Shown here piece by piece: positions 1-6,136 of a stretch of DNA of 6,136 nucleotides; within the stretch, counting starts at the first letter, position 1, and each line of letters starts with the position of its first letter. This DNA is from a virus (Duplodnaviria; Heunggongvirae; Uroviricota; Caudoviricetes). The notes beneath the pieces were generated by a model. It searched no databases. It saw nothing but the letters and a program-made list of their open reading frames with translations, and was not told the origin of the DNA. The stretch lies in IMG/VR virus record IMGVR_UViG_3300029073_000029; one strand, given 5' to 3'. Both the position numbers and the translations under genes were made by a program.

Positions 1-22
1 CGAAGGTGAGTTGATGGCTCAT
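1..22 (-). CDS. 5' end of a minus-strand ORF (MSHQLTF...) that runs off the left edge; sits where P4 beta follows gop
   Basis: ATG at 22..20 (plus-strand cat), AGAGG about 6 nt upstream, frame open to position 1. It starts 41 nt after the TGA of the 63..1082 gene. Only 7 codons are visible, so identity is unknown. Confidence 0.3.
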
Positions 23-62
23 GATGTCCCTCTGGGATGCGCTCCGGATGAATATGATGATC

Positions 63-1082
63 TCATATCAGGAACTTGTTCGCACCTTCCCTAGCAGAAC
101 GGACATCGACTGGTGTAAGGAAGAATTTATTCTTCCATTTTTGATTTTTAAATCTTGAGGATAGCCTTGCTATTAAAGATGACTTTCCATTTCCTGAACC
201 GCCTATAAGTGATAGGACTCTACTTTGAGAGCTATTTCCTCTAACATTCTCAAGATAATCCCAAACTTCTTTCTGTATATATTCGCGACCAACAAAGTCT
301 TTCGGCTGACATGGCTTATAATCCATAAAATCGTCAGCAAGAATTATTTCACTGACAATTTCCCTTTCGTAATTTTCAGATAATTTTGAAGACGAAACAG
401 TTTGTTCCGGTTCAGATAATATATAAAAATCAGTTACTTCCAACCCTTCAAAAAGCCCTTGCTCCTTTATAATATCACTTATGCGACTGACACTTGGAAT
501 TTTACTATTTTTATTTATAGCGAACGGCACCACTCTTATAGGGCTACCATTTTCAACTTCTTGCAAAAGCCAAGTCATTTCTATTTCAGGATGAACTAAA
601 AGTGTTGCACTAGTATATTTTGCCGGAATGTCATCTGTTGGAATATCCTCAACCTTACCTGTTGCAAGTATAGATATAAGAATCTCTTTTTTATCAAAAA
701 AAGAATAATCTATACGCTCATCAAGTCTATAATCCTCAAGCGTTGACTGAGCATCTTTACCCAAATCAGAAATTGAAAAAAGTGCAATTTTTTTAACTCT
801 CAACCTAAATGCTTGAGAAAATGCCAAATCAACCACAGATGAATCAACTTTTTGCTGCATGAATTTACATTCTACATACAGCTTTTCATTTGATGGTGTA
901 TGAGTAGCCTGAATATCAATTTCCATGCCAGATTTTCTGACTTCCATACCATCAATTCTATACGATTGCCGGCGGAGTATATCAGCGCAAAAATTCTCGA
1001 AAAACTTCCCTCTCGAGGTATTGGAATAATTACTAGGTACACAAACTATCAAATCTTTATTCAGTGGTAACGGCCTGGCCAT
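63..1082 (-). CDS. AT-rich cargo protein, 339 aa: N-terminal Mrr-like PD-(D/E)xK nuclease motif plus C-terminal start of an AAA_16/STAND-type P-loop NTPase that appears truncated
   Basis: Complete ORF with AAGGAG about 8 nt upstream of the ATG at 1082. Seen: GKFFENFCADILRRQSY...GMEIDIQA...KLYVECKF (hD...ExK pattern typical of Mrr_cat restriction-endonuclease domains) and FVGREYIQ...RVLSLIGGSGNGKSSLIARL (Walker A, at about 203..180) followed by only about 38 residues before TGA at 65..63. Clearly AT-rich by eye compared with flanking DNA. Position corresponds to gop in P4 (inference). Confidence 0.8.
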   Translation of the reverse strand: MARPLPLNKDLIVCVPSNYSNTSRGKFFENFCADILRRQSYRIDGMEVRKSGMEIDIQATHTPSNEKLYVECKFMQQKVDSSVVDLAFSQAFRLRVKKIALFSISDLGKDAQSTLEDYRLDERIDYSFFDKKEILISILATGKVEDIPTDDIPAKYTSATLLVHPEIEMTWLLQEVENGSPIRVVPFAINKNSKIPSVSRISDIIKEQGLFEGLEVTDFYILSEPEQTVSSSKLSENYEREIVSEIILADDFMDYKPCQPKDFVGREYIQKEVWDYLENVRGNSSQSRVLSLIGGSGNGKSSLIARLSSRFKNQKWKNKFFLTPVDVRSAREGANKFLI

Positions 1083-1097
1083 TTATACACTCCTTAT

Positions 1098-1127
1098 CTC
1101 ATATCCTTTTGACAAGTAAGATATCAA
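1098..1127 (-). promoter_or_regulatory. Candidate sigma70 promoter for the cargo gene
   Basis: On the minus strand, TTGATA (plus 1127..1122), an 18-nt spacer, then TATGAG (plus 1103..1098), just upstream of the AAGGAG RBS. Motif match only. Confidence 0.25.
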
Positions 1128-1202
1128 CCTCGAGTTTCAGAAACCAGTATCTTGCGCATATTTACGACATCAAAACTTTTGGTTATGCACCCACAGCGCG
1201 CA

Positions 1203-1221
1203 GTGCTTTCCCCGCCTCGCC
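1203..1221. other. cos: cos site: 19-nt P2/P4-type cohesive-end sequence
   Basis: Plus strand gtgctttccccgcctcgcc is the reverse complement of GGCGAGGCGGGGAAAGCAC, which I recall as the P2/P4 cohesive end. The following bases on the minus strand (TGCGCGCTG) also match my recollection of the P2 left end. It lies right after psu, as in P4. Confidence 0.7.
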
Positions 1222-1323
1222 CGCCCGCTTTGCGGGGCGGTTTTAATGCAGTTGCACTGACACGCTCAGACCGCGCCGGGAATGGTGCGGTCTGCAGAAA
1301 ATGAGGCAGGAAAACGCATGCAA

Positions 1324-1355
1324 AGCCATGCACCTTATCGATGCATGGCTTTTTT
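1324..1355. terminator. Perfect 9-bp hairpin with T-tract between psu and cos; possibly bidirectional
   Basis: AGCCATGCA (1324..1332), 9-nt loop, TGCATGGCT (1342..1350), then TTTTT (1351..1355) on the plus strand. On the minus strand the stem is preceded by A-run and followed by UUGCAUGCGUUUU, a weaker U-tract. Confidence 0.5.
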
Positions 1356-1385
1356 CAGTAAAAACGGGAGGATTTTCGGGGAATT

Positions 1386-1958
1386 TTACACAGACTGACG
1401 TGATGCCAGTTGCGCACTTTTACGCGAAAAAATCATGTTCTGCGCAGGGGTGAATTTTTCACGGCTGTCATCCACCGAAGCCGCGTCAGGCCTGAATCCG
1501 ATGGTCGTTAAAATGTCACTATCCTGTGCGGAATAATTAATTTTTTCCCCCTTCGCAAGCCAGGACAGAAGGGCTTCACGCAGGGCATCTGTGGCACGCT
1601 GTATGGCACAGTTTCGGGCAATGGCCGTCAGCTCACTGTAGCCCATCAGCTCCGGTGCCAGTGCCGCCGCCAGTGCTGTGCCGTGCTGCTGCATAAAATC
1701 ATTCAGCCGGTCGCGGATGCTGATGTGCTGAACGGCTTCATGCGAACGAATATAACGACCGGCGGCCTGATTCACCTGCCATTTTCTGACTTCGATAATA
1801 TTGCGTAATTCGTCCAGGCGACTGACGTTTCTGCCTTCTCCTGACTGAATCCGCAGATATTCCTGTTCGGCCGCAGCCAGCTCATTTTTGCGTTGCAGCC
1901 ATGCTGCTTTGTTATTCTGACAGGTGTCAAAGGCCTGCTGTAAGGCTGTGCTTTCCAT
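1386..1958 (-). CDS. psu: Psu-like protein (polarity suppression / capsid decoration), 190 aa
   Basis: Complete ORF of exactly 190 aa, the length I recall for P4 Psu. Third gene of a sid-delta-psu string, immediately upstream of cos as in P4. No distinctive motif was checked, so the call rests on size and synteny. Confidence 0.7.
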   Translation of the reverse strand: MESTALQQAFDTCQNNKAAWLQRKNELAAAEQEYLRIQSGEGRNVSRLDELRNIIEVRKWQVNQAAGRYIRSHEAVQHISIRDRLNDFMQQHGTALAAALAPELMGYSELTAIARNCAIQRATDALREALLSWLAKGEKINYSAQDSDILTTIGFRPDAASVDDSREKFTPAQNMIFSRKSAQLASRQSV

Positions 1959-2031
1959 CGTTATCTCTTTCTCATCATGCTGAAGAATAAAAATACGGTG
2001 TGCGGCGACGGCCGGTGTTAACCGGCAGCCC

Positions 2032-2532
2032 TCATTCCAGACGCAGCGAATATGATTGTGTTTTTAACCGTACTGGCGGCAGTTCCTGTTTTTCATGCAG
2101 GCTTTCTGCAAGCTCGTCCGGCGTGACCGGGCGGACAATGAAGCGGTTGATGGTCTGAAGCGTTTTAAACACCAGACCACAGCCCGGATCCGTGCACACA
2201 TAAAAACGCTCGGTGACTTCCTGAGACAGACGCCGCGATGTTCTTGACAGCGCAAGGCCTTTACATCTCCGACAACAATATCCGGTAACAAGCATTCTTT
2301 TCGGGCGCTTCATGCTGCCGGAGGCTGACGTCAGTGAATCGCGGTATCTCTGTTTGCCTGAAATGTATTCCATTCCTGAATCTTTACAGTCAGAGAAAAA
2401 GCTTTCACTCGCTTCAAATGTCGCAGAGCAATAAATATTCCGGCACTGTGCAATCATTATCTTGGTGCCATCGTCCATGAAATGTGCGCGACGGGTGTGA
2501 GCAACATGTCCACACGACGGGCAGTAAATCAT
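2032..2532 (-). CDS. delta: Delta late-gene transcriptional activator, 166 aa, with two Ogr-type zinc fingers
   Basis: Two copies of the C-X2-C-X22-C-X4-C finger characteristic of the Ogr/Delta family: CPSC...(22)...CRNIYC and CRRC...(22)...CTDPGC. Start ATG overlaps the sid stop as ATGA (plus strand 2529..2532 tcat). Length matches the 166 aa I recall for P4 Delta. Confidence 0.9.
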   Translation of the reverse strand: MIYCPSCGHVAHTRRAHFMDDGTKIMIAQCRNIYCSATFEASESFFSDCKDSGMEYISGKQRYRDSLTSASGSMKRPKRMLVTGYCCRRCKGLALSRTSRRLSQEVTERFYVCTDPGCGLVFKTLQTINRFIVRPVTPDELAESLHEKQELPPVRLKTQSYSLRLE

Positions 2533-3263
2533 GACAGCAGTCCTCTGGCCTTAAGCTTTGCTCCCTGCTGGTCTATTTTGTCCTGCCACACCTTGCGCTG
2601 TGCCGGTGTGCCTGCCACCTCATAATCCATGTGCGGGAGTGTTGCCGCTGACAGTCCGGTCAGCCGGAGAACCGGCTCGCCGGTGAGGCTGATTTGCATC
2701 TGTTTTATTTTCTGTTCCAGCGATGATTTCACCTGCTGCATGACAGCCTTTTCCGGTGCGACGTAGCCCTGATGGCCGGTGGTGTTGGCGAGCGGATTTT
2801 CCTGTACCAGGATGCTCAGATGCATTGCCCGGACAAGCGCCTCACAGGTTTCATTCAGGGCGTGTTCCAGCTCATGCTCTGCATACAGACTCAGCAGGTG
2901 ATGATGTGCCTTCCGGTAGGCGGTGGCCGTGCTGTCACACGCCCCTTTCAGGCGTTCGCGTTCAAAATTCAGCACCACGGCCAGATTGTCATATTCCTGT
3001 ACCAGCTCCCGGCGTGCCACGCGCTCAATGTGGCGCTGTTTCAGCTCGTCGCTCAGGACACCACCGGCTGCACGAAAGGCCGTGCGCCAGTCGTCAGCGT
3101 CGTTTCCGTCGGCCTGCGCCAGCGCATTTTTTTCCTGCTCTGCCCGTTCAATGGCCGTGACGGTCTCATCCATCAGGCGGGCGTTCTCAAGATGGGCGGC
3201 TCTGGCCTTTTCCAGTTGTGCCAGTGCGGGTTTCAGATATTCAGGGATAGTGTGGTCAGACAT
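2529..3263 (-). CDS. sid: Sid-like external scaffold / capsid size determination protein, 244 aa
   Basis: The ORF-track start at 3281 is a GTG. The ATG at 3263 has AGGAG about 7 nt upstream and gives 244 aa, the length I recall for P4 Sid. Helix-prone composition. First gene of the sid-delta-psu order, downstream of TGT-N12-ACA sites. Confidence 0.8.
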   Translation of the reverse strand: MSDHTIPEYLKPALAQLEKARAAHLENARLMDETVTAIERAEQEKNALAQADGNDADDWRTAFRAAGGVLSDELKQRHIERVARRELVQEYDNLAVVLNFERERLKGACDSTATAYRKAHHHLLSLYAEHELEHALNETCEALVRAMHLSILVQENPLANTTGHQGYVAPEKAVMQQVKSSLEQKIKQMQISLTGEPVLRLTGLSAATLPHMDYEVAGTPAQRKVWQDKIDQQGAKLKARGLLS

Positions 3264-3297
3264 TTTCCGGCTCCTCGTCACTTCAGGTTAAGAAAAT

Positions 3298-3353
3298 TGT
3301 GACGTACACCGGACAGCAACACGACGCATTGCAGATGTGCCAGCCCTGACACA
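3298..3353 (-). promoter_or_regulatory. Psid-like late promoter with two TGT-N12-ACA activator sites
   Basis: TGT(3298..3300)-N12-ACA(3313..3315) and TGT(3336..3338)-N12-ACA(3351..3353). The distal site is centred about 55 bp and the proximal about 17 bp upstream of a transcription start assumed near 3290. Ogr/Delta-activated P2/P4 late promoters have this element centred near -55. Confidence 0.5.
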
Positions 3354-3408
3354 GGAGACTCATCCTCACACCGGCAAGCCAGGAAAAGGTCGCAGGAAAA
3401 ACCGGCTT

Positions 3409-3577
3409 ACTGTTTGTTTTTTTATATTTTACTGTTCACCTCTGTTCACCTTAATAAAAAAGATAAGTAATACAGTAAGTTAAAGGATGAACAATCGCAG
3501 TAATGACTGTTCACCGTCTGTTCACCACTGTTCACCCGCTCATGGACTTTTTGTGCTGTTTACTACTGTTTGTTTTT
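3409..3577. other. ori: Putative replication origin with alpha-type iterons
   Basis: Five perfect direct TGTTCACC octamers at 3433..3440, 3443..3450, 3508..3515, 3519..3526 and 3529..3536, spaced about 10-11 bp, separated by an AT-rich spacer and bracketed by a 13-bp direct repeat ACTGTTTGTTTTT (3409..3421 and 3565..3577). I recall TGTTCACC as the type I iteron bound by P4 alpha at ori and crr. Confidence 0.6.
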
Positions 3578-3640
3578 ATTAATTCGCCGGGAATGAATAA
3601 GAAGAAACGATTTGTATTTCACTATAAAAATTACAAATTG

Positions 3641-3670
3641 CTTTAAGTGGCTTTAAATGACTTTAAGTGG
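3641..3670. repeat. Three tandem 10-bp repeats CTTTAA(G/A)TG(G/A)
   Basis: ctttaagtgg / ctttaaatga / ctttaagtgg, head to tail with helical-turn periodicity, about 150 bp upstream of vis. Function not determined; candidate regulator-binding array. Confidence 0.6.
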
Positions 3671-3695
3671 AAATGAACAAAAAACACACAACCAT

Positions 3696-3713
3696 TGTAA
3701 GGCTGCCGGAACA
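3696..3713 (+). promoter_or_regulatory. Candidate activator site of a PLL-like late promoter driving vis
   Basis: TGT(3696..3698)-N12-ACA(3711..3713), centred about 110 bp upstream of the vis ATG, which would place a transcription start near 3755..3760. Confidence 0.4.
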
Positions 3714-3815
3714 AATCCCCCCTGTTGCGTCTGCTGAAAATATTCACAAAATAAAGCGCTACCCGAAGCCGGACGGACTTATCCGGTGCTGTATGGACAT
3801 TAACGAGGTAGCCCG

Positions 3816-4082
3816 ATGCAAGCTGTTTTTTCTTCCCCGTCTCCCGCCCCTGTGACGCCACTGATGCCGCTGCCGGACATCACACAGGAGCGTTTTTTAC
3901 GTCTTCCGGAAGTGATGCACCTGTGCGGCCTGTCACGCTCGACCATCTATGAACTCATCCGTAAGGGGGAATTTCCGCCGCAGGTGAGTCTTGGCGGTAA
4001 AAATGTGGCCTGGCTGCACTCTGAAGTCACCGCATGGATGGCCGGCCGCATTGCCGGACGCAAACGGGGGTACGACGCATGA
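3816..4082 (+). CDS. vis: AlpA/Vis-family DNA-binding regulator (excisionase-like helix-turn-helix), 88 aa
   Basis: [51 protein letters not shown] matches the AlpA-family pattern (LP.V....G.SRST.Y.....G.FP....LG.....W...EV..W). GAGG lies 7 nt upstream of the ATG at 3816. An alternative in-frame ATG at 3864 would give 72 aa. Confidence 0.85.
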
Positions 4083-4117
4083 TGATGCCTGTTCTGCAAA
4101 AAGTCCCTTTTTCTGGC

Positions 4118-4147
4118 TTGCCTTTTTCCGGCATTTGCGGATATAGT
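4118..4147 (+). promoter_or_regulatory. Candidate sigma70 promoter (PLE-like) upstream of the immunity-like leader
   Basis: TTGCCT (4118..4123), 18-nt spacer, TATAGT (4142..4147). Motif match only. Confidence 0.35.
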
Positions 4148-4154
4148 TTTTCCG

Positions 4155-4471
4155 CTGCCGCAAAATCGGCAGCCGGGCGTGAGAACCCGTGTAACTCGAA
4201 GGCGACATATGACGCGCCATGCGTCTTTTTTTGTGTCGCAATCAACGCCACAGAGCGCCAGATTATGGTGTGGCGTGTGGTTTGCCGTGCAGGTATGATC
4301 CTGTTCGCAATCGCATGTTATGCCACTGAGTCAATGGTAGCTCAGGCGGGGCAGCCTCCGGGCTGGCCGGTATTCTTCGAGGCCGGTATTCTCACCCCCG
4401 TCTGGGCTATCGCCATCGAGCGTGAGAACTCCGGCGATAGCAGTTATTTGCTACTCGAAGGAGGCTGCCTT
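4155..4471 (+). ncRNA. Untranslated leader with repeated boxes and complementary segments; candidate cI-type immunity RNA region
   Basis: GCGTGAGAAC occurs twice (4177..4186, 4420..4429), each followed by ACTCGAAGG (4194..4202, 4453..4461; the second abuts the RBS of the 65-aa ORF). Between them, CTTCGAGG (4375..4382) and TTCTCAC (4389..4395) are complementary to those boxes, within a 12-nt direct repeat GGCCGGTATTCT (4365..4376, 4381..4392). No convincing ORF with RBS. Boundaries are approximate. Confidence 0.35.
4211..4232 (+). terminator. Short GC hairpin followed by T7; candidate intrinsic terminator within the leader
   Basis: GACGC (4211..4215), 5-nt loop, GCGTC (4221..4225), then TTTTTTT (4226..4232). 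Confidence 0.4.
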
Positions 4472-4669
4472 ATGGCTACAACCCTTACCCCCTCACACCC
4501 TGAATTTGTCTTTGTGTTTGCGGCTGTCCGTCGCGCAGACCGTCATCCCCGTATCTGCATGCTTCGCACCGTCGCCGGTGATGAACGCAGCGCCCGCCGT
4601 TCCCTTGTCCGTGACTATGTGCTCTCCCTTGCTGCCCGTCTGCCGGTGGTGGAGGTGTCCCGTGCGTAA
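4472..4669 (+). CDS. Small protein, 65 aa, first ORF after the leader (position comparable to P4 kil)
   Basis: GAAGGAGG ends about 7 nt before the ATG at 4472. It is the 3' part of the 211-aa track ORF, whose upstream portion lacks an RBS and overlaps vis and the leader. Confidence 0.55.
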
Positions 4670-4949
4670 TAAAAAAGCCCCTCAGACCGTCTCAGCACGT
4701 CATGACGCCCGTGAACACCTCAGCATTGAGGCTTACCATAAGCTCAACCGCGCCAGCGCCGTATCCCAGTTTGTTGGGGGTGATTTGATTCACCGTGAAC
4801 TCTCCGGCCTGCATCAGCTCTACATTCCGCATATTTTCAGCTACCTGAATGAAGATATTGATTTTGTGCTGAATGAGCTGAAAGCCAAAGGCCTGTGCCG
4901 CGATTTTCTCGCCCAGCAGAAAGACCGGGGAGACAGGACGCATGTTTGA
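4662..4949 (+). CDS. Small protein, 95 aa, GTG start (size compatible with P4 epsilon, not verified)
   Basis: GGAGG (4651..4655) sits 6 nt upstream of the GTG at 4662. It overlaps the stop of the 65-aa ORF by 8 nt and its own TGA (4947..4949) overlaps the next ATG. Confidence 0.6.
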
Positions 4950-5397
4950 TTTTCCCCAGCCCGGTGAGATTTACCGTTCTGCCGGTTTTCCCGATGTGGC
5001 CGTGGTCGGCATTCTGGAAGACGGTATTCCGTGGGAAATGCCGTACCGCTGCCCGGACATTGTCTGGAACCCGTACCGCCGTAAATTCAGTATCCTTGTG
5101 CGTATCCTCGATGACGGGCGCACCACAGACATCCCGCTGGGGCGTTTTCTGCGGGAATTTACCTGTGACCGTCCTGACCTGTTTAAACGCAGCCCCGTAA
5201 ACCGGCATGCGGTACTGAAAGAAATGGCCGGAGACCCGGAATTACAGAAATGGCGGGAGAAATATCTGGATATTTACCCGCAGGACACTGTTCCGGCCAG
5301 CCGGGCGGCACCGGTGGCGCGGGAATGGCGGGAAATTCCCCGCACGGAGCCTGACCCGGAAATCACCCCGGATAACAGTTACCGCAATTATCTGTAA
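4942..5397 (+). CDS. Hypothetical protein, 151 aa (same length as P4 orf151)
   Basis: Complete ORF, start overlaps the upstream stop (translational coupling), purine-rich stretch upstream. Length and position within the left operon match my recollection of P4 orf151. Confidence 0.75.
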   Translation: MFDFPQPGEIYRSAGFPDVAVVGILEDGIPWEMPYRCPDIVWNPYRRKFSILVRILDDGRTTDIPLGRFLREFTCDRPDLFKRSPVNRHAVLKEMAGDPELQKWREKYLDIYPQDTVPASRAAPVAREWREIPRTEPDPEITPDNSYRNYL

Positions 5398-5470
5398 TTA
5401 AAAAACGATACCCGAAAAATTAAATGTGCGTATTCGCGCAGGGATACGCACGTCTTCAGGAGACGCAGAT

Positions 5471-5536
5471 ATGCCTTATCAGTTAATGCAACCGGCACGG
5501 AATGCAGTCATCTGTCACAGGGAGGAAAACAAATGA
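5471..5536 (+). CDS. Possible 21-codon leader micro-ORF ([21 protein letters not shown]) coupled to the next gene
   Basis: AGGAGA (5458..5463) lies 7 nt upstream of the ATG at 5471. Its stop TGA (5534..5536) overlaps the ATG (5533..5535) of the 106-aa ORF as ATGA. Too short to judge by composition. Confidence 0.25.
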
Positions 5537-5853
5537 AAACACCCTTACCGCCCGTCTTACGCGCTGCCCTTTACCGTCGCGCTGTCGCCTGTGCCTGGCT
5601 GACCGTGTGCGAACGTCAGCACCGCTACCCGCATCTCACCCTTGAGTCACTGGAGGCGGCCATCGCCGCTGAGCTGGAAGGCTTTTATCTGCGCCAGCAC
5701 GGTGAGGAAAAAGGGCGTCAGATAGCCTGTGCCCTGCTGGAAGATTTAATGGAATCCGGCCCCCTGAAGGCCGCGCCGTCGCTGTCCTTTCTCGGGCTGG
5801 TTGTGATGGATGAACTCTGTGCCCGTCACATAAAAGCGCCGGTACTGCACTGA
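5533..5853 (+). CDS. Hypothetical protein, 106 aa, immediately upstream of the primase
   Basis: GGGAGG ends 8 nt before the ATG. Complete ORF ending 14 nt before the alpha start. Whether this or the 95-aa ORF is the epsilon (anti-repressor) equivalent cannot be decided from sequence alone. Confidence 0.75.
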
Positions 5854-5867
5854 AGGAGAACAACACC

Positions 5868-6136
5868 ATGAAAATGAACGTAACCGCCACCGTCAGCCAT
5901 GCGCTCGGCCACTGGCCGCGTATTCTCCCGGCGCTGGGGATTCAGGTGCTGAAGAACCGTCATCAGCCCTGTCCGGTCTGTGGCGGGAGTGACCGCTTCC
6001 GTTTTGATGACAGGGAGGGGCGTGGCACCTGGTACTGCAATCAGTGTGGTGCCGGTGACGGCCTGAAACTGGTTGAAAAGGTGTTTGGTGTTTCCCCGTC
6101 CGACGCGGCCGCAAAGGTGGCTGCCGTGACCGGCTG
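5868..6136 (+). CDS. alpha: Alpha-type primase/helicase replication protein, N-terminal part only (runs off the window)
   Basis: AAGGAG (5853..5858) lies 9 nt upstream of the ATG at 5868. Translation MKMNVTATVSHALGHWPRILPALGIQVLKNRHQPCPVCGGSDRFRFDDREGRGTWYCNQCGAGDGLKLVEKVFG carries a CxxC...CxxC zinc ribbon of the kind found at the N terminus of P4-type primases. No stop within the window. Confidence 0.85.
   Translation, partial: MKMNVTATVSHALGHWPRILPALGIQVLKNRHQPCPVCGGSDRFRFDDREGRGTWYCNQCGAGDGLKLVEKVFGVSPSDAAAKVAAVTG

What the first reader, a model, noticed from the sequence alone, without database searches (positions are those of the whole stretch)
5398..5536. Hairpin and coupled 21-codon micro-ORF ahead of the 106-aa gene
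Seen: the 135-bp gap after the 151-aa ORF contains an 8-bp inverted repeat GTGCGTAT/ATACGCAC (5426..5451) with no T-tract. It is followed by a strong RBS and a 21-codon ORF whose TGA overlaps the ATG of the 106-aa gene. Inference: an operator or RNA processing site plus a leader peptide coupling expression of the downstream gene (and possibly alpha) to upstream translation.
Basis: inference. Interest (0 to 1): 0.4.

Follow-up and report, generated by a model that had tools for sequence, protein, structure and literature searches.

The report
Vestigial gene stub before P4 cnr
The hairpin and 21-codon mini-gene ahead of the satellite phage P4 copy-number gene cnr are real, but the mini-gene is the leftover stub of a small gene that P4's relatives still carry, not a dedicated regulatory leader peptide, so the finding is mostly ordinary.

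Summary
The window is satellite phage P4's left operon (99% identical to X51522). The 135-nt gap lies between orf151 and cnr (ORF106).

**Observation: confirmed.**
- An 8-bp perfect inverted repeat extends to a 12-bp RNA stem of -17.5 kcal/mol.
- It is followed by GGAG, then a 21-codon ORF at 5471-5536 whose TGA overlaps the cnr ATG.
- The dyad was already annotated in GenBank X02534.

**Interpretation: partly supported.**
- In related P4-like satellites the same hairpin, ribosome-binding site and ATG start an 85-90-aa gene, "X" (phrog_10110, unknown function).
- X also ends in ATGA on the cnr start. The literature says this family is "absent from P4".
- P4 keeps only X's translation start and its last ~19 nt.
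- The stub peptide is not under purifying selection: 8 nonsynonymous and 0 synonymous variants, against 10:21 in cnr.
- Other lineages carry a different 24-codon stub, an in-frame fusion of the X start to cnr, or a disrupted X.
- So there is no conserved leader peptide.
- The ATGA junction is ancestral and nearly universal. Relay of ribosomes to cnr is therefore plausible but unproven.

**Hairpin.** It is better conserved than the flanking coding DNA. No covariation could be shown, and its function (most likely at the RNA level) is inferred only.

The parts
4942..5397 (+). orf151 (151 aa, unknown function), the upstream gene. The hairpin module is found only downstream of orf151 homologues.
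   Evidence: ORF; X51522 ORF151; phrog_10748, E = 4e-101. The covariance model finds the element once per orf151-bearing locus and never in loci that lack orf151.
5398..5423 (+). A/U-rich unpaired spacer (TTAAAAAACGATACCCGAAAAATTAA). It contains one match to the degenerate RNase E consensus RN|WUU at 5417-5421.
   Evidence: unpaired in the MFE structure. It is 62-88% identical to P4 across lineages, against 61-80% for the orf151 3' end. The RNase E motif is read by eye against a consensus recalled from memory and is weak evidence.
5424..5453 (+). Stem-loop: 12-bp stem (perfect 8-bp core 5426-5433 / 5444-5451) with a 6-nt loop GCGCAG (5436-5441).
   Evidence: It has 1 segregating site in 30 nt among 101 P4-type haplotypes (C5451T, G-C to G-U). 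It is 83-100% identical to P4 in 14 of 15 orf151-bearing lineages compared (77% in the outlier L055, Cedecea), against 69-86% for flanking coding DNA in the same 14, and 30/30 identical in Serratia L058. Annotated as a dyad in X02534.
5456..5464 (+). Conserved TCAGGAGAC holding the first Shine-Dalgarno (GGAG 5459-5462), 5 nt after the stem and 8 nt before the ATG at 5471.
   Evidence: The GGAG is invariant in all 27 unique intergenic variants, although the search pattern required TCAGGAG. The same ribosome-binding site serves gene X, the stubs or cnr itself in relatives.
5471..5536 (+). 21-codon micro-[24 protein letters not shown]. It is the stub left at the locus of gene X (phrog_10110). Its stop TGA at 5534-5536 overlaps the cnr ATG.
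   Evidence: Both ends are homologous to the X start and the X 3' end. The interior is not demonstrably homologous to X. Variants are 8 nonsynonymous to 0 synonymous.
5520..5525 (+). Second Shine-Dalgarno (GGGAGG) for cnr, embedded in micro-ORF codons 17-19, 7 nt before the cnr ATG.
   Evidence: X05623 annotates 'pot. ribosome binding site (ORF 106)' here. Conserved as GGGGAGG / GAGGAGG at the 3' end of X in relatives.
5533..5853 (+). cnr (ORF106, DUF5375), the P4 copy-number regulator and the downstream coupled gene. alpha starts at 5869.
   Evidence: (PF17345, E = 2.9e-63). The role of cnr is taken from PMC8628076.

Best explanation
The 135-nt orf151-cnr gap of P4 has two parts.

**(1) A conserved non-coding module.**
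- It consists of an A/U-rich spacer, a 12-bp stem-loop and a GGAG ribosome-binding site.
- In P4-like satellites that carry orf151 it provides the translation start for whichever ORF comes next.

**(2) The remnant of the next gene.**
- Most relatives have here an 85-90-aa gene X (phrog_10110, unknown function). It is 75 aa in elements without orf151. Its stop overlaps the cnr start (ATGA).
- In the P4 lineage the conserved core of X is gone.
- What is left is X's ribosome-binding site and ATG, about 40 nt of unassignable sequence, and X's last ~19 nt, which hold the cnr ribosome-binding site and the ATGA junction.
- Read together these form the 21-codon ORF.
- Its peptide has no function of its own.

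**If the ORF still does anything (inferred):**
- It acts as a short relay cistron. Ribosomes load at the strong upstream site, translate 21 codons and terminate on the cnr AUG.
- There they can reinitiate, or keep the cnr start site open.
- This resembles the chain of overlapping genes in the rest of the operon.

**The hairpin (inferred):**
- It most likely acts in the left-operon mRNA on the + strand as a structural or stability element.
- It sits at the only sizeable untranslated gap in this part of the operon. All the other gene junctions examined overlap or lie within about 15 nt.
- Possible roles are a protective 5' hairpin after cleavage in the A/U-rich spacer, a 3' exonuclease barrier, or an insulator that keeps the ribosome-binding site free.

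**Shown:** the anatomy, positional homology of both ends with X, loss of the X core, lack of peptide constraint, conservation of the hairpin and of the ATGA junction.

**Inferred:** translation of the stub, any coupling effect, and the RNA-level role of the hairpin.
For: **Identity of the region**
- The window is 99.0% identical to P4 X51522 over orf151-cnr-alpha.

**Relatives with orf151 carry X at this position**
- L039, L041, L047, L049, L052, L055, L058 and L280 have the identical layout: orf151 stop, spacer, hairpin, TCAGGAGAC, ATG.
- This is followed by an 85-90-aa ORF ending ...GGGGAGGnnnnnnATGA on cnr.
- X matches phrog_10110 (E = 1e-39 to 1e-45) and has no Pfam or NCBIfam family.
- X forms 337 clusters of 'hypothetical proteins' with a strongly conserved core.
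- de Sousa & Rocha 2021 describe a 75-aa family between epsilon and alpha, present in 61% of P4-like elements and 'absent from P4' (PMC8628076).

**States among 172 hairpin-bearing loci**

| State | Loci |
|---|---|
| P4-type stub (140 of them intact) | 142 |
| Full-length X | 25 |
| X-start::cnr in-frame fusion | 3 |
| Different 24-codon stub, also ATGA-coupled | 1 |
| IS1 insertion in X | 1 |

**Selection**
- Micro-ORF: 8 nonsynonymous, 0 synonymous.
- cnr: 10 nonsynonymous, 21 synonymous.
- orf151: 42 nonsynonymous, 32 synonymous.

**ATGA junction**
- Present in 54 of 56 genome loci.
- The other E. coli P4-like operons examined are chains of genes that overlap by 4 nt or 1 nt.

**Two separate loss lineages**
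- In a cnr neighbour-joining tree the P4-type stub and the 24-codon stub plus fusions fall in different clades (no support values).

**Hairpin**
- z = -4.1.
- 3.3 segregating sites per 100 nt, against 12-15 in the neighbouring segments.
- 83-100% identical to P4 in 14 of 15 lineages (77% in L055), where flanking coding DNA is 69-86%.
- The + strand fold is more stable than the - strand fold in 13 of 15 variants.
- Changes C5451U, C5449U and the UC/CU swap at 5434-5435 keep pairing only as RNA G-U pairs on the + strand.
Against: **Descent of the stub from X**
- The interior ~40 nt of the micro-ORF cannot be aligned to X better than shuffled sequence (85/500 and 178/500 shuffles as good).
- Descent from X therefore rests on position and on the two ends.
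- The first 16 nt instead share a 9-nt identity (ATCAGTTAA, same offset) with the start of the fused cnr in L056. The history may involve recombination rather than one simple deletion.

**Coupling is not demonstrably needed**
- cnr has its own GGGAGG and an AUG that is 0.86 unpaired.
- X carries a nonsense codon in L414, a frameshift in L025 and an IS1 insertion in another locus (L162).
- One P4-type copy has ATG changed to ATA.
- Two in-frame stubs are only about a 1-in-9 coincidence.

**Hairpin**
- No significant covariation: 297/500 shuffles are as good.
- U5433C fits the - strand better than the + strand.
- The stem is degraded in Cedecea L055.
- The loop is as conserved as the stem, which would suit a sequence-specific binder.
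- No transcript-end or ribosome-profiling data were available.
Confidence: 0.7

Rival explanations
1. Neutral scar. The micro-ORF is not translated to any effect. cnr is translated only from its own ribosome-binding site, and the open frame and ATGA overlap persist only because the deletion is recent and the last 19 nt are needed as the cnr ribosome-binding site.
For: - cnr has a strong ribosome-binding site of its own and an accessible AUG.
- The micro-ORF shows no synonymous bias (8 N: 0 S).
- P4-type copies are 95-100% identical, so there has been little time for decay.
- Relatives tolerate a nonsense codon, a frameshift and an IS1 insertion in X.
- One copy has lost the start codon.
Against: - The ribosome-binding site and start are intact in 140 of 142 P4-type copies.
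- A second, differently built 24-codon stub in another clade also keeps the ribosome-binding site, ATG, open frame and ATGA.
- When X is fully lost, its start is fused in frame to cnr rather than discarded.
- The upstream hairpin and ribosome-binding-site module stays highly conserved even where X is gone.
Confidence: 0.3
2. The hairpin is a sequence-specific binding site. It would be an RNA translational operator next to the ribosome-binding site, or a DNA operator on the 8-bp dyad, for a P4 or host protein that controls X/cnr-alpha expression.
For: - Primary sequence, including the loop GCGCAG, is almost invariant across lineages, and 30/30 identical in Serratia L058.
- The distance from the stem to GGAG is fixed at 5 nt.
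- The stem lies at -47 to -18 from the AUG, partly inside the region a 30S subunit covers (established knowledge).
- There is no covariation, as expected if sequence rather than shape is read.
Against: - No candidate binder is known.
- The dyad lacks the alpha-binding repeats annotated at the P4 origin.
- The half-site centres are 18 bp apart, which does not fit one or two helical turns.
- Variants C5451T and C5449T break the DNA dyad but keep RNA pairing.
- The site is degraded in Cedecea.
Confidence: 0.2
3. Dedicated regulatory leader peptide or attenuator. Translation of a conserved short peptide senses a signal and controls cnr/alpha through alternative RNA structures.
For: A short ORF with a strong ribosome-binding site sits directly upstream of, and overlaps, the regulated gene, and a hairpin lies nearby.
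Against: - The peptide is not conserved in relatives and is not under purifying selection.
- The hairpin lies upstream of the micro-ORF, so translation cannot remodel it.
- No terminator or alternative pairing was found.
- There is no run of regulatory codons.
- No Rfam leader family matches.
Confidence: 0.04
4. The stem-loop is an intrinsic terminator for antisense (- strand) transcription. On the - strand the stem is followed by AUUUAAUUUUUCGGG.
For: - The conserved A-rich spacer on the + strand reads as a U-rich tail on the - strand.
- Variant U5433C keeps pairing only on the - strand.
- In L273 the - strand fold is slightly the stronger one.
Against: - The - strand stem is weaker in 13 of 15 variants: -10.7 against -17.5 kcal/mol in P4, and -7.1 in the C5451T variant.
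- The terminator scan does not call it.
- No promoter-like site and no - strand gene lie to its right within the window.
Confidence: 0.06

Closest known systems
Bacteriophage P4 itself (GenBank X51522, X02534, X05623): the ORF151-ORF106 (cnr) intergenic region
   Same: The sequence is the same (99.0% identity). X02534 already annotates the hairpin as an imperfect dyad symmetry and a '-10 consensus' at the orf151 stop. X05623 annotates the cnr ribosome-binding site.
   Different: No record annotates the 21-codon ORF or relates it to any gene. No function is attached to the dyad.
The 75-aa family of P4-like satellites between epsilon and alpha (de Sousa & Rocha 2021, PMC8628076) = phrog_10110 = gene X here
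   Same: It occupies the same locus immediately upstream of cnr. It uses the same ribosome-binding site and ATG after the hairpin in orf151-bearing elements. It has the same 3' end with the cnr ribosome-binding site and the ATGA overlap.
   Different: P4 lacks the entire conserved core, including the invariant residues E23, C24, H27, C75 and W79. The 21-aa product matches no family. The paper calls the family absent from P4; here a stub of its locus is identified.
Translationally coupled overlapping cistrons (ATGA stop-start overlap, as at trpE-trpD and trpB-trpA of E. coli; established knowledge)
   Same: The stop codon of the upstream ORF overlaps the downstream start. The downstream ribosome-binding site lies inside the upstream ORF. 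The neighbouring genes of P4-like left operons are arranged the same way.
   Different: Here the upstream cistron is a 21-codon remnant with no product of its own. Dependence of cnr on it is untested.
Short leader cistrons used to standardise translation (synthetic 'bicistronic design'; recalled from memory, Mutalik et al. 2013)
   Same: The layout is the same: first ribosome-binding site, a short ORF of about 16-21 codons, a second ribosome-binding site embedded in its 3' end, then an overlapping stop and start.
   Different: This one is natural and arose by gene decay. No evidence shows it buffers cnr expression.
Intercistronic mRNA stem-loops that set segment stability or processing (for example REP in malE-malF, papB-papA, puf operon; established knowledge)
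   Same: It is a stable hairpin without a U-tract in an untranslated gap of a polycistronic mRNA, preceded by an A/U-rich single-stranded stretch.
   Different: No processing or stability data exist for this site. The loop sequence is conserved, which such elements do not require.

Membership tests
Attenuation-type leader peptide (trpL / hisL / pheL kind) | The leader ORF is conserved among related operons. | tested here: not met
   Relatives have an 85-90-aa gene, a different 24-codon stub, or no ORF at this position. Variants within the P4 type are 8 N: 0 S.
Attenuation-type leader peptide (trpL / hisL / pheL kind) | Alternative terminator and antiterminator hairpins overlap or follow the leader ORF, with an intrinsic terminator before the structural gene. 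| tested here: not met
   The only strong hairpin lies upstream of the ORF (5424-5453). No terminator-like site was found in 5200-6136 near it.
Attenuation-type leader peptide (trpL / hisL / pheL kind) | A run of codons for the sensed amino acid, or a known stalling motif. | tested here: not met
   [21 protein letters not shown] has no repeated codon run. Stalling motifs were judged by eye only.
Translationally coupled overlapping cistrons | The stop codon of the upstream ORF overlaps or abuts the downstream start codon. | tested here: met
   ATGA at 5533-5536. The same junction is present in 54 of 56 genome loci.
Translationally coupled overlapping cistrons | The upstream ORF has a functional translation start, so that ribosomes reach the junction. 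| tested here: inconclusive
   GGAG lies 8 nt before the ATG and is intact in 140 of 142 P4-type copies. The first ribosome-binding site is about 0.3-0.4 unpaired. Actual translation cannot be tested here.
Translationally coupled overlapping cistrons | Downstream translation depends on upstream translation. | not testable with these tools
   This needs reporter fusions or ribosome profiling. In silico, the cnr ribosome-binding site and AUG are not strongly sequestered, which argues against strict dependence.
phrog_10110 / 75-aa P4-like satellite protein (gene X) | A profile match, and the conserved core (L-E-C-L-E-H...SVIYLMT...RCN..W). | tested here: not met
   The 21-aa product matches no Pfam family and has none of the 24 invariant columns. 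Its interior DNA aligns to X no better than shuffles.
phrog_10110 / 75-aa P4-like satellite protein (gene X) | The locus: immediately upstream of cnr with an ATGA overlap and, in orf151-bearing elements, started by the ribosome-binding site after the hairpin. | tested here: met
   Alignment of P4 with L039, L047, L049, L052, L055 and L058. The flanks are identical on both sides.
Intrinsic (Rho-independent) terminator | A G+C-rich stem-loop directly followed by a U-tract. | tested here: not met
   On the + strand the stem is followed by CUUCAGGAG. The scans call nothing. The - strand version is weaker and also not called.
Any curated RNA family (Rfam 15) | A covariance-model match. | tested here: not met
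   At E <= 1 the only hits in the window are C4/CI RNA, isrK and c4-a1b1 at 4141-4417. Nothing matches in 5398-5536.
Structured cis-regulatory RNA supported by covariation | Compensatory base changes that maintain the helix. | tested here: inconclusive
   In 15 distinct variants 95% of cells are paired, but only 1 pair has a double change, and 297/500 shuffles score as well. The sequences are too similar to decide.

The most novel reading that the evidence does not exclude
The A/U-rich spacer, invariant stem-loop and ribosome-binding site could form a translational operator. A P4-encoded protein (Orf151, encoded just upstream, or Cnr itself) would bind it to set how many ribosomes enter the relay ORF and hence how much Cnr, and perhaps alpha primase, is made. 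That would be a previously unrecognised post-transcriptional layer of P4 plasmid copy-number control. It would also explain why the stub ORF and its junction were kept after gene X was lost.
Probability: 0.1. Interest if true: 0.55.

Novelty: new member of a known kind. Interest (0 to 1): 0.3.

Why it matters
P4 is the model phage satellite, and cnr/alpha set its replication and plasmid copy number.

- **A small correction to the literature.** P4 does not simply 'lack' the widespread 75-aa satellite gene. It carries a stub of that gene's locus, which still forms a ribosome-binding site to ATGA relay in front of cnr.
- **A candidate cis element.** The hairpin module is flagged as the best-conserved non-coding element in this part of the left operon, and it can be tested with a few point mutations.
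- **A caution.** Short ORFs coupled to a downstream gene can be gene remnants rather than evolved leader peptides.

None of this changes the current understanding of P4 biology unless the hairpin or the relay proves to be regulatory.

Tried and rejected
- **Rfam scan of the whole window at E <= 1.** Nothing matched in the region.
- **Sigma-70 promoter and intrinsic terminator scans, both strands.** Nothing was found at the element. The '-10 consensus' TGTAAT annotated in 1984 has no acceptable -35.
- **CI immunity RNA pairing with the region.** Complementarity is weaker than the window average. The known Rho-dependent terminator timm maps to window 4472-4628, not here (PMC3177188).
- **Covariation test of the stem.** Not significant.
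- **Homology of the micro-ORF interior to X, by shuffle tests.** Not significant. I therefore withdrew my first claim of a clean in-frame deletion, and an early idea that TGCAACCGGC matches the Kosakonia X tail.
- **Hairpin core pattern in viral contigs.** Outside P4-like elements there were only unrelated chance matches.
- **Covariance model of the element against 59 sources.** No extra or diverged copies, and none in elements without orf151.
- **More diverged orf151 loci from viral contigs.** The hits were almost all near-identical P4-type copies.
- **-1 frameshift signal.** A_AAA_AAC at 5400-5406 plus a downstream hairpin looked like one. I rejected it because it lies after the orf151 stop and 17 nt from the stem.
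- **AlphaFold2 model of X.** Low confidence (pLDDT 61, two helices), so I ran no fold search.
- **Primary P4 papers.** Dehò 1988, Terzano 1994, Lindqvist 1993 and Liu 1997 are not held in the library. One literature search was wasted on unrelated 'CNR' hits.
Full report
**What the window is.**
- Bases 1222-6134 are 97.8% identical to satellite phage P4 (X51522). Bases 4900-6136 are 99.0% identical.
- On the + strand lies the P4 left operon:
  - kil/orf88 (3816-4082);
  - the CI immunity RNA and its targets (Rfam C4, isrK and c4-a1b1 hits at 4141-4417);
  - epsilon;
  - orf151 (4942-5397);
  - ORF106 = cnr (5533-5853);
  - the start of alpha (5869 onward).
- The finding is the orf151-cnr gap.

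**Check of the observation.** Everything described is there.
- The gap is 135 nt (5398-5532).
- The inverted repeat GTGCGTAT / ATACGCAC sits at 5426-5433 and 5444-5451.
- As RNA it extends to a 12-bp stem, 5424-5435 with 5442-5453, including two G-U pairs, with loop GCGCAG.
- Its energy is -17.5 kcal/mol against -7.5 +/- 2.5 for shuffles (z = -4.1).
- It forms with high probability in three different sequence contexts.
- No T-tract follows, and neither scan calls a promoter or terminator.
- GGAG (5459-5462) lies 8 nt before ATG5471.
- The ORF 5471-5536 encodes [21 protein letters not shown]. Its TGA overlaps the cnr ATG (ATGA, 5533-5536).
- cnr has its own GGGAGG (5520-5525) inside the micro-ORF, annotated in X05623.
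- The dyad was annotated in 1984 in X02534 (record 3656-3690 = window 5422-5456). The micro-ORF is annotated nowhere.

**What relatives have at this position.** I fetched 56 loci encoding Cnr homologues from one genome per species. I added about 230 loci from viral and metagenome contigs that match the end of orf151 plus TCAGGAG, and several E. coli prophages. Two layouts exist.
- *Elements with orf151.*
  - L039, L041, L047, L049, L052, L055, L058 and E. coli L280 have orf151 stop, A-rich spacer, the same hairpin, TCAGGAGAC and ATG, all as in P4.
  - The ATG then opens an 85-90-aa ORF that ends ...GGGGAGGnnnnnnATGA on the cnr start.
- *Elements without epsilon/orf151.*
  - A 75-aa version of the same protein follows the Icd-like gene directly and again ends ATGA on cnr.
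  - No hairpin is present.
- *The protein, called X here.*
  - It matches phrog_10110 (E down to 1e-45) and has no Pfam or NCBIfam family.
  - It forms 337 clusters, all named 'hypothetical protein', with a highly conserved core.

**The micro-ORF is what is left of that locus in P4.**
- In the alignment P4 shares the left flank up to ATGCCT, and the right flank from CAGGGAGGAAAACAAATGA onward, with X-bearing elements.
- P4 has 66 nt where they have 258-273 nt. None of the conserved core of X remains.
- I could not show that the ~40 interior nucleotides derive from X. Local and long-gap alignments score no better than shuffles (85/500 and 178/500 shuffles as good).
- The first 16 nt instead share ATCAGTTAA, at the same offset, with the start of cnr in elements where the X start is fused directly to cnr (L056: ATGGCTGATCAGTTAACC...; another type: ATGCCTGTTCAGTTAACC...).
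- The exact history (one deletion, or deletion plus recombination among variants) is therefore open.
- The positional homology of both ends is firm.

**States of the locus.** Among 172 hairpin-bearing loci (redundant sample):

| State | Loci |
|---|---|
| P4-type stub, intact | 140 |
| P4-type stub with ATG changed to ATA | 1 |
| P4-type stub with the stop lost in a poly-C run (probably a sequencing error) | 1 |
| Full-length X | 25 |
| In-frame X-start::cnr fusion | 3 |
| Different 24-codon stub (MPYKQNNDAINHNNPCSLTGEVNI*), also ATGA-coupled | 1 |
| IS1 insertion in X | 1 |

- X also carries a nonsense codon in L414 and a frameshift in L025.
- In complete E. coli genomes, about 1,009 records have the P4-type region at 95% identity or more. 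Only 85 genomes have X.
- A cnr neighbour-joining tree places P4 apart from the clade holding the 24-codon stub and the fusions. That suggests at least two separate losses, but the tree is mosaic and has no support values.

**Selection.** Among 101 distinct P4-type haplotypes spanning orf151 to cnr:

| Segment | Nonsynonymous | Synonymous | Segregating sites per 100 nt |
|---|---|---|---|
| orf151 | 42 | 32 | 14.9 |
| spacer | – | – | 15.4 |
| hairpin | – | – | 3.3 |
| ribosome-binding-site region | – | – | 11.8 |
| micro-ORF | 8 | 0 | 12.1 |
| cnr | 10 | 21 | 9.0 |

- Three further missense variants of the micro-ORF appear in the larger set.
- The 21-aa peptide is therefore not maintained as a protein.
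- There is also no attenuator anatomy. The hairpin lies upstream of the ORF, and no terminator or alternative pairing exists.

**Is coupling still plausible?** Evidence for:
- An ORF that stops on the cnr start codon is present in 54 of 56 genome loci.
- The other E. coli P4-like operons examined are chains of genes overlapping by 4 nt or 1 nt.
- In every rearranged state except the disrupted ones, translation that starts after the hairpin is delivered to the cnr start, or into cnr itself.

Evidence against:
- cnr has its own strong ribosome-binding site. Its AUG is 0.86 unpaired and its ribosome-binding site 0.34 unpaired, no worse than the upstream site.
- Disrupted X alleles exist.
- Two in-frame stubs are only about a 1-in-9 coincidence.

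I rate a retained relay function at roughly even odds. It works like a natural version of a short leader cistron with the second ribosome-binding site embedded in its 3' end.

**The hairpin.**
- It is the best-conserved piece of the region.
  - It has one segregating site in 30 nt, C5451T, which turns a G-C pair into G-U.
  - It is 83-100% identical to P4 in 14 of 15 lineages (77% in L055), where the orf151 3' end is 69-80% and the cnr 5' end 73-86% identical in those same 14.
  - It is 30/30 identical in a Serratia element whose Cnr is 76% identical.
- It occurs once per orf151-bearing element and nowhere else in P4-like loci. Unrelated contigs show only chance matches.
- The stem is always 5 nt from GGAG.
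- Weak evidence for a + strand RNA structure:
  - C5451U, C5449U and the UC/CU swap at 5434-5435 keep pairing only through G-U on the + strand.
  - The + strand fold is the more stable in 13 of 15 variants.
- Evidence against, or neutral:
  - No significant covariation.
  - U5433C fits the - strand better.
  - The stem is degraded in Cedecea L055.
  - The loop is as invariant as the stem, which would suit a sequence-specific binder.
- The hairpin sits in the only sizeable untranslated gap in this part of the operon (cnr to alpha is 15 nt; the other junctions examined overlap). It is preceded by an A/U-rich unpaired stretch with one RNase E-like motif.
- My preferred reading is an mRNA structural or stability element that comes with the epsilon-orf151 module and provides a defined translation start for the next cistron. 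This is inference only.
- A translational or DNA operator, and an antisense terminator, are kept as rivals.

**Comparison with what is known.**
- The sequence and the dyad are known (P4, 1984-1990 records).
- The absence of the 75-aa gene from P4 is known (2021).
- New here:
  - the un-annotated 21-codon ORF is identified as the stub of that locus;
  - several alternative decay states share the same hairpin and ribosome-binding-site module and the same junction to cnr;
  - the hairpin module is more conserved than its coding flanks.
- The finding is not a member of the attenuation-leader family. Three defining features were tested and none was met.
- It meets the structural criteria of overlapping coupled cistrons. 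The functional criterion is untestable here.

**Verdict.**
A coupling architecture is plausible, and the hairpin is a conserved element of unknown role.
There is no conserved leader peptide; the micro-ORF is a vestige.
- This is a modest, mostly explanatory result in a very well-studied element.

Noticed in passing
window 4141-4417 (+): The P4 immunity region is recognised by Rfam. Hits are C4 antisense RNA (the CI RNA) at 4330-4417, isrK at 4154-4231 and c4-a1b1 targets at 4141-4193. The known Rho-dependent terminator timm maps to window 4472-4628 (PMC3177188).
   Followed up: partly
window 1-1221; ORF 63-1082 (-): The left 1.2 kb is not P4: the match to X51522 starts at 1222, the P4 cos end. 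It encodes a 339-aa protein with a P-loop-like GGSGNGKSS motif. Its only hit in the defence library is weak (DndF, E = 2.7e-4). This is possibly cargo of the satellite's variable hotspot.
   Followed up: partly
window 4942-5853 (+): orf151 and cnr are in the same reading frame, and the 135-nt gap has no stop codon in that frame. A single TAA (5395-5397) separates them. The chance of 45 stop-free codons is about 0.12, so this is probably a coincidence.
   Followed up: partly
L279 (E. coli CFSAN027346) 1-2500; also hits H47, H48: An IS66-family element (ISCro1) is inserted at the position equivalent to window 5431, inside the left arm of the hairpin. It separates orf151 from cnr in several E. 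coli genomes.
   Followed up: partly
alignment A2 (gene X proteins P0001-P0116): Family X has invariant C24, H27 and C75 and a nearly invariant C44, which might bind a metal. The AlphaFold2 model is a low-confidence two-helix hairpin (pLDDT 61).
   Followed up: partly
L414 about 2150-2160; L025; L162: Gene X is decaying in other lineages too. L414 has an in-frame TAG (…CTGATGTAGGTGCAG…), Raoultella scottii L025 has a frameshift, and L162 has an IS1 end inserted after codon 4.
   Followed up: partly
L004-L007, L054: Contigs binned as Dysgonomonas, Clostridiales, Ferruginibacter and 'bacterium' MAGs carry a cnr whose product is 100% identical to P4 Cnr, together with the P4-type gap. A 'Vagococcus sp.' assembly carries a P4-like element. 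These are most likely enterobacterial contamination or mis-binning.
   Followed up: no
window 5400-5406 (+): A_AAA_AAC, a classic -1 frameshift slippery heptamer, lies 17 nt upstream of the hairpin. It comes after the orf151 stop codon and the spacer is too long, so it was judged not to be a frameshift signal.
   Followed up: yes
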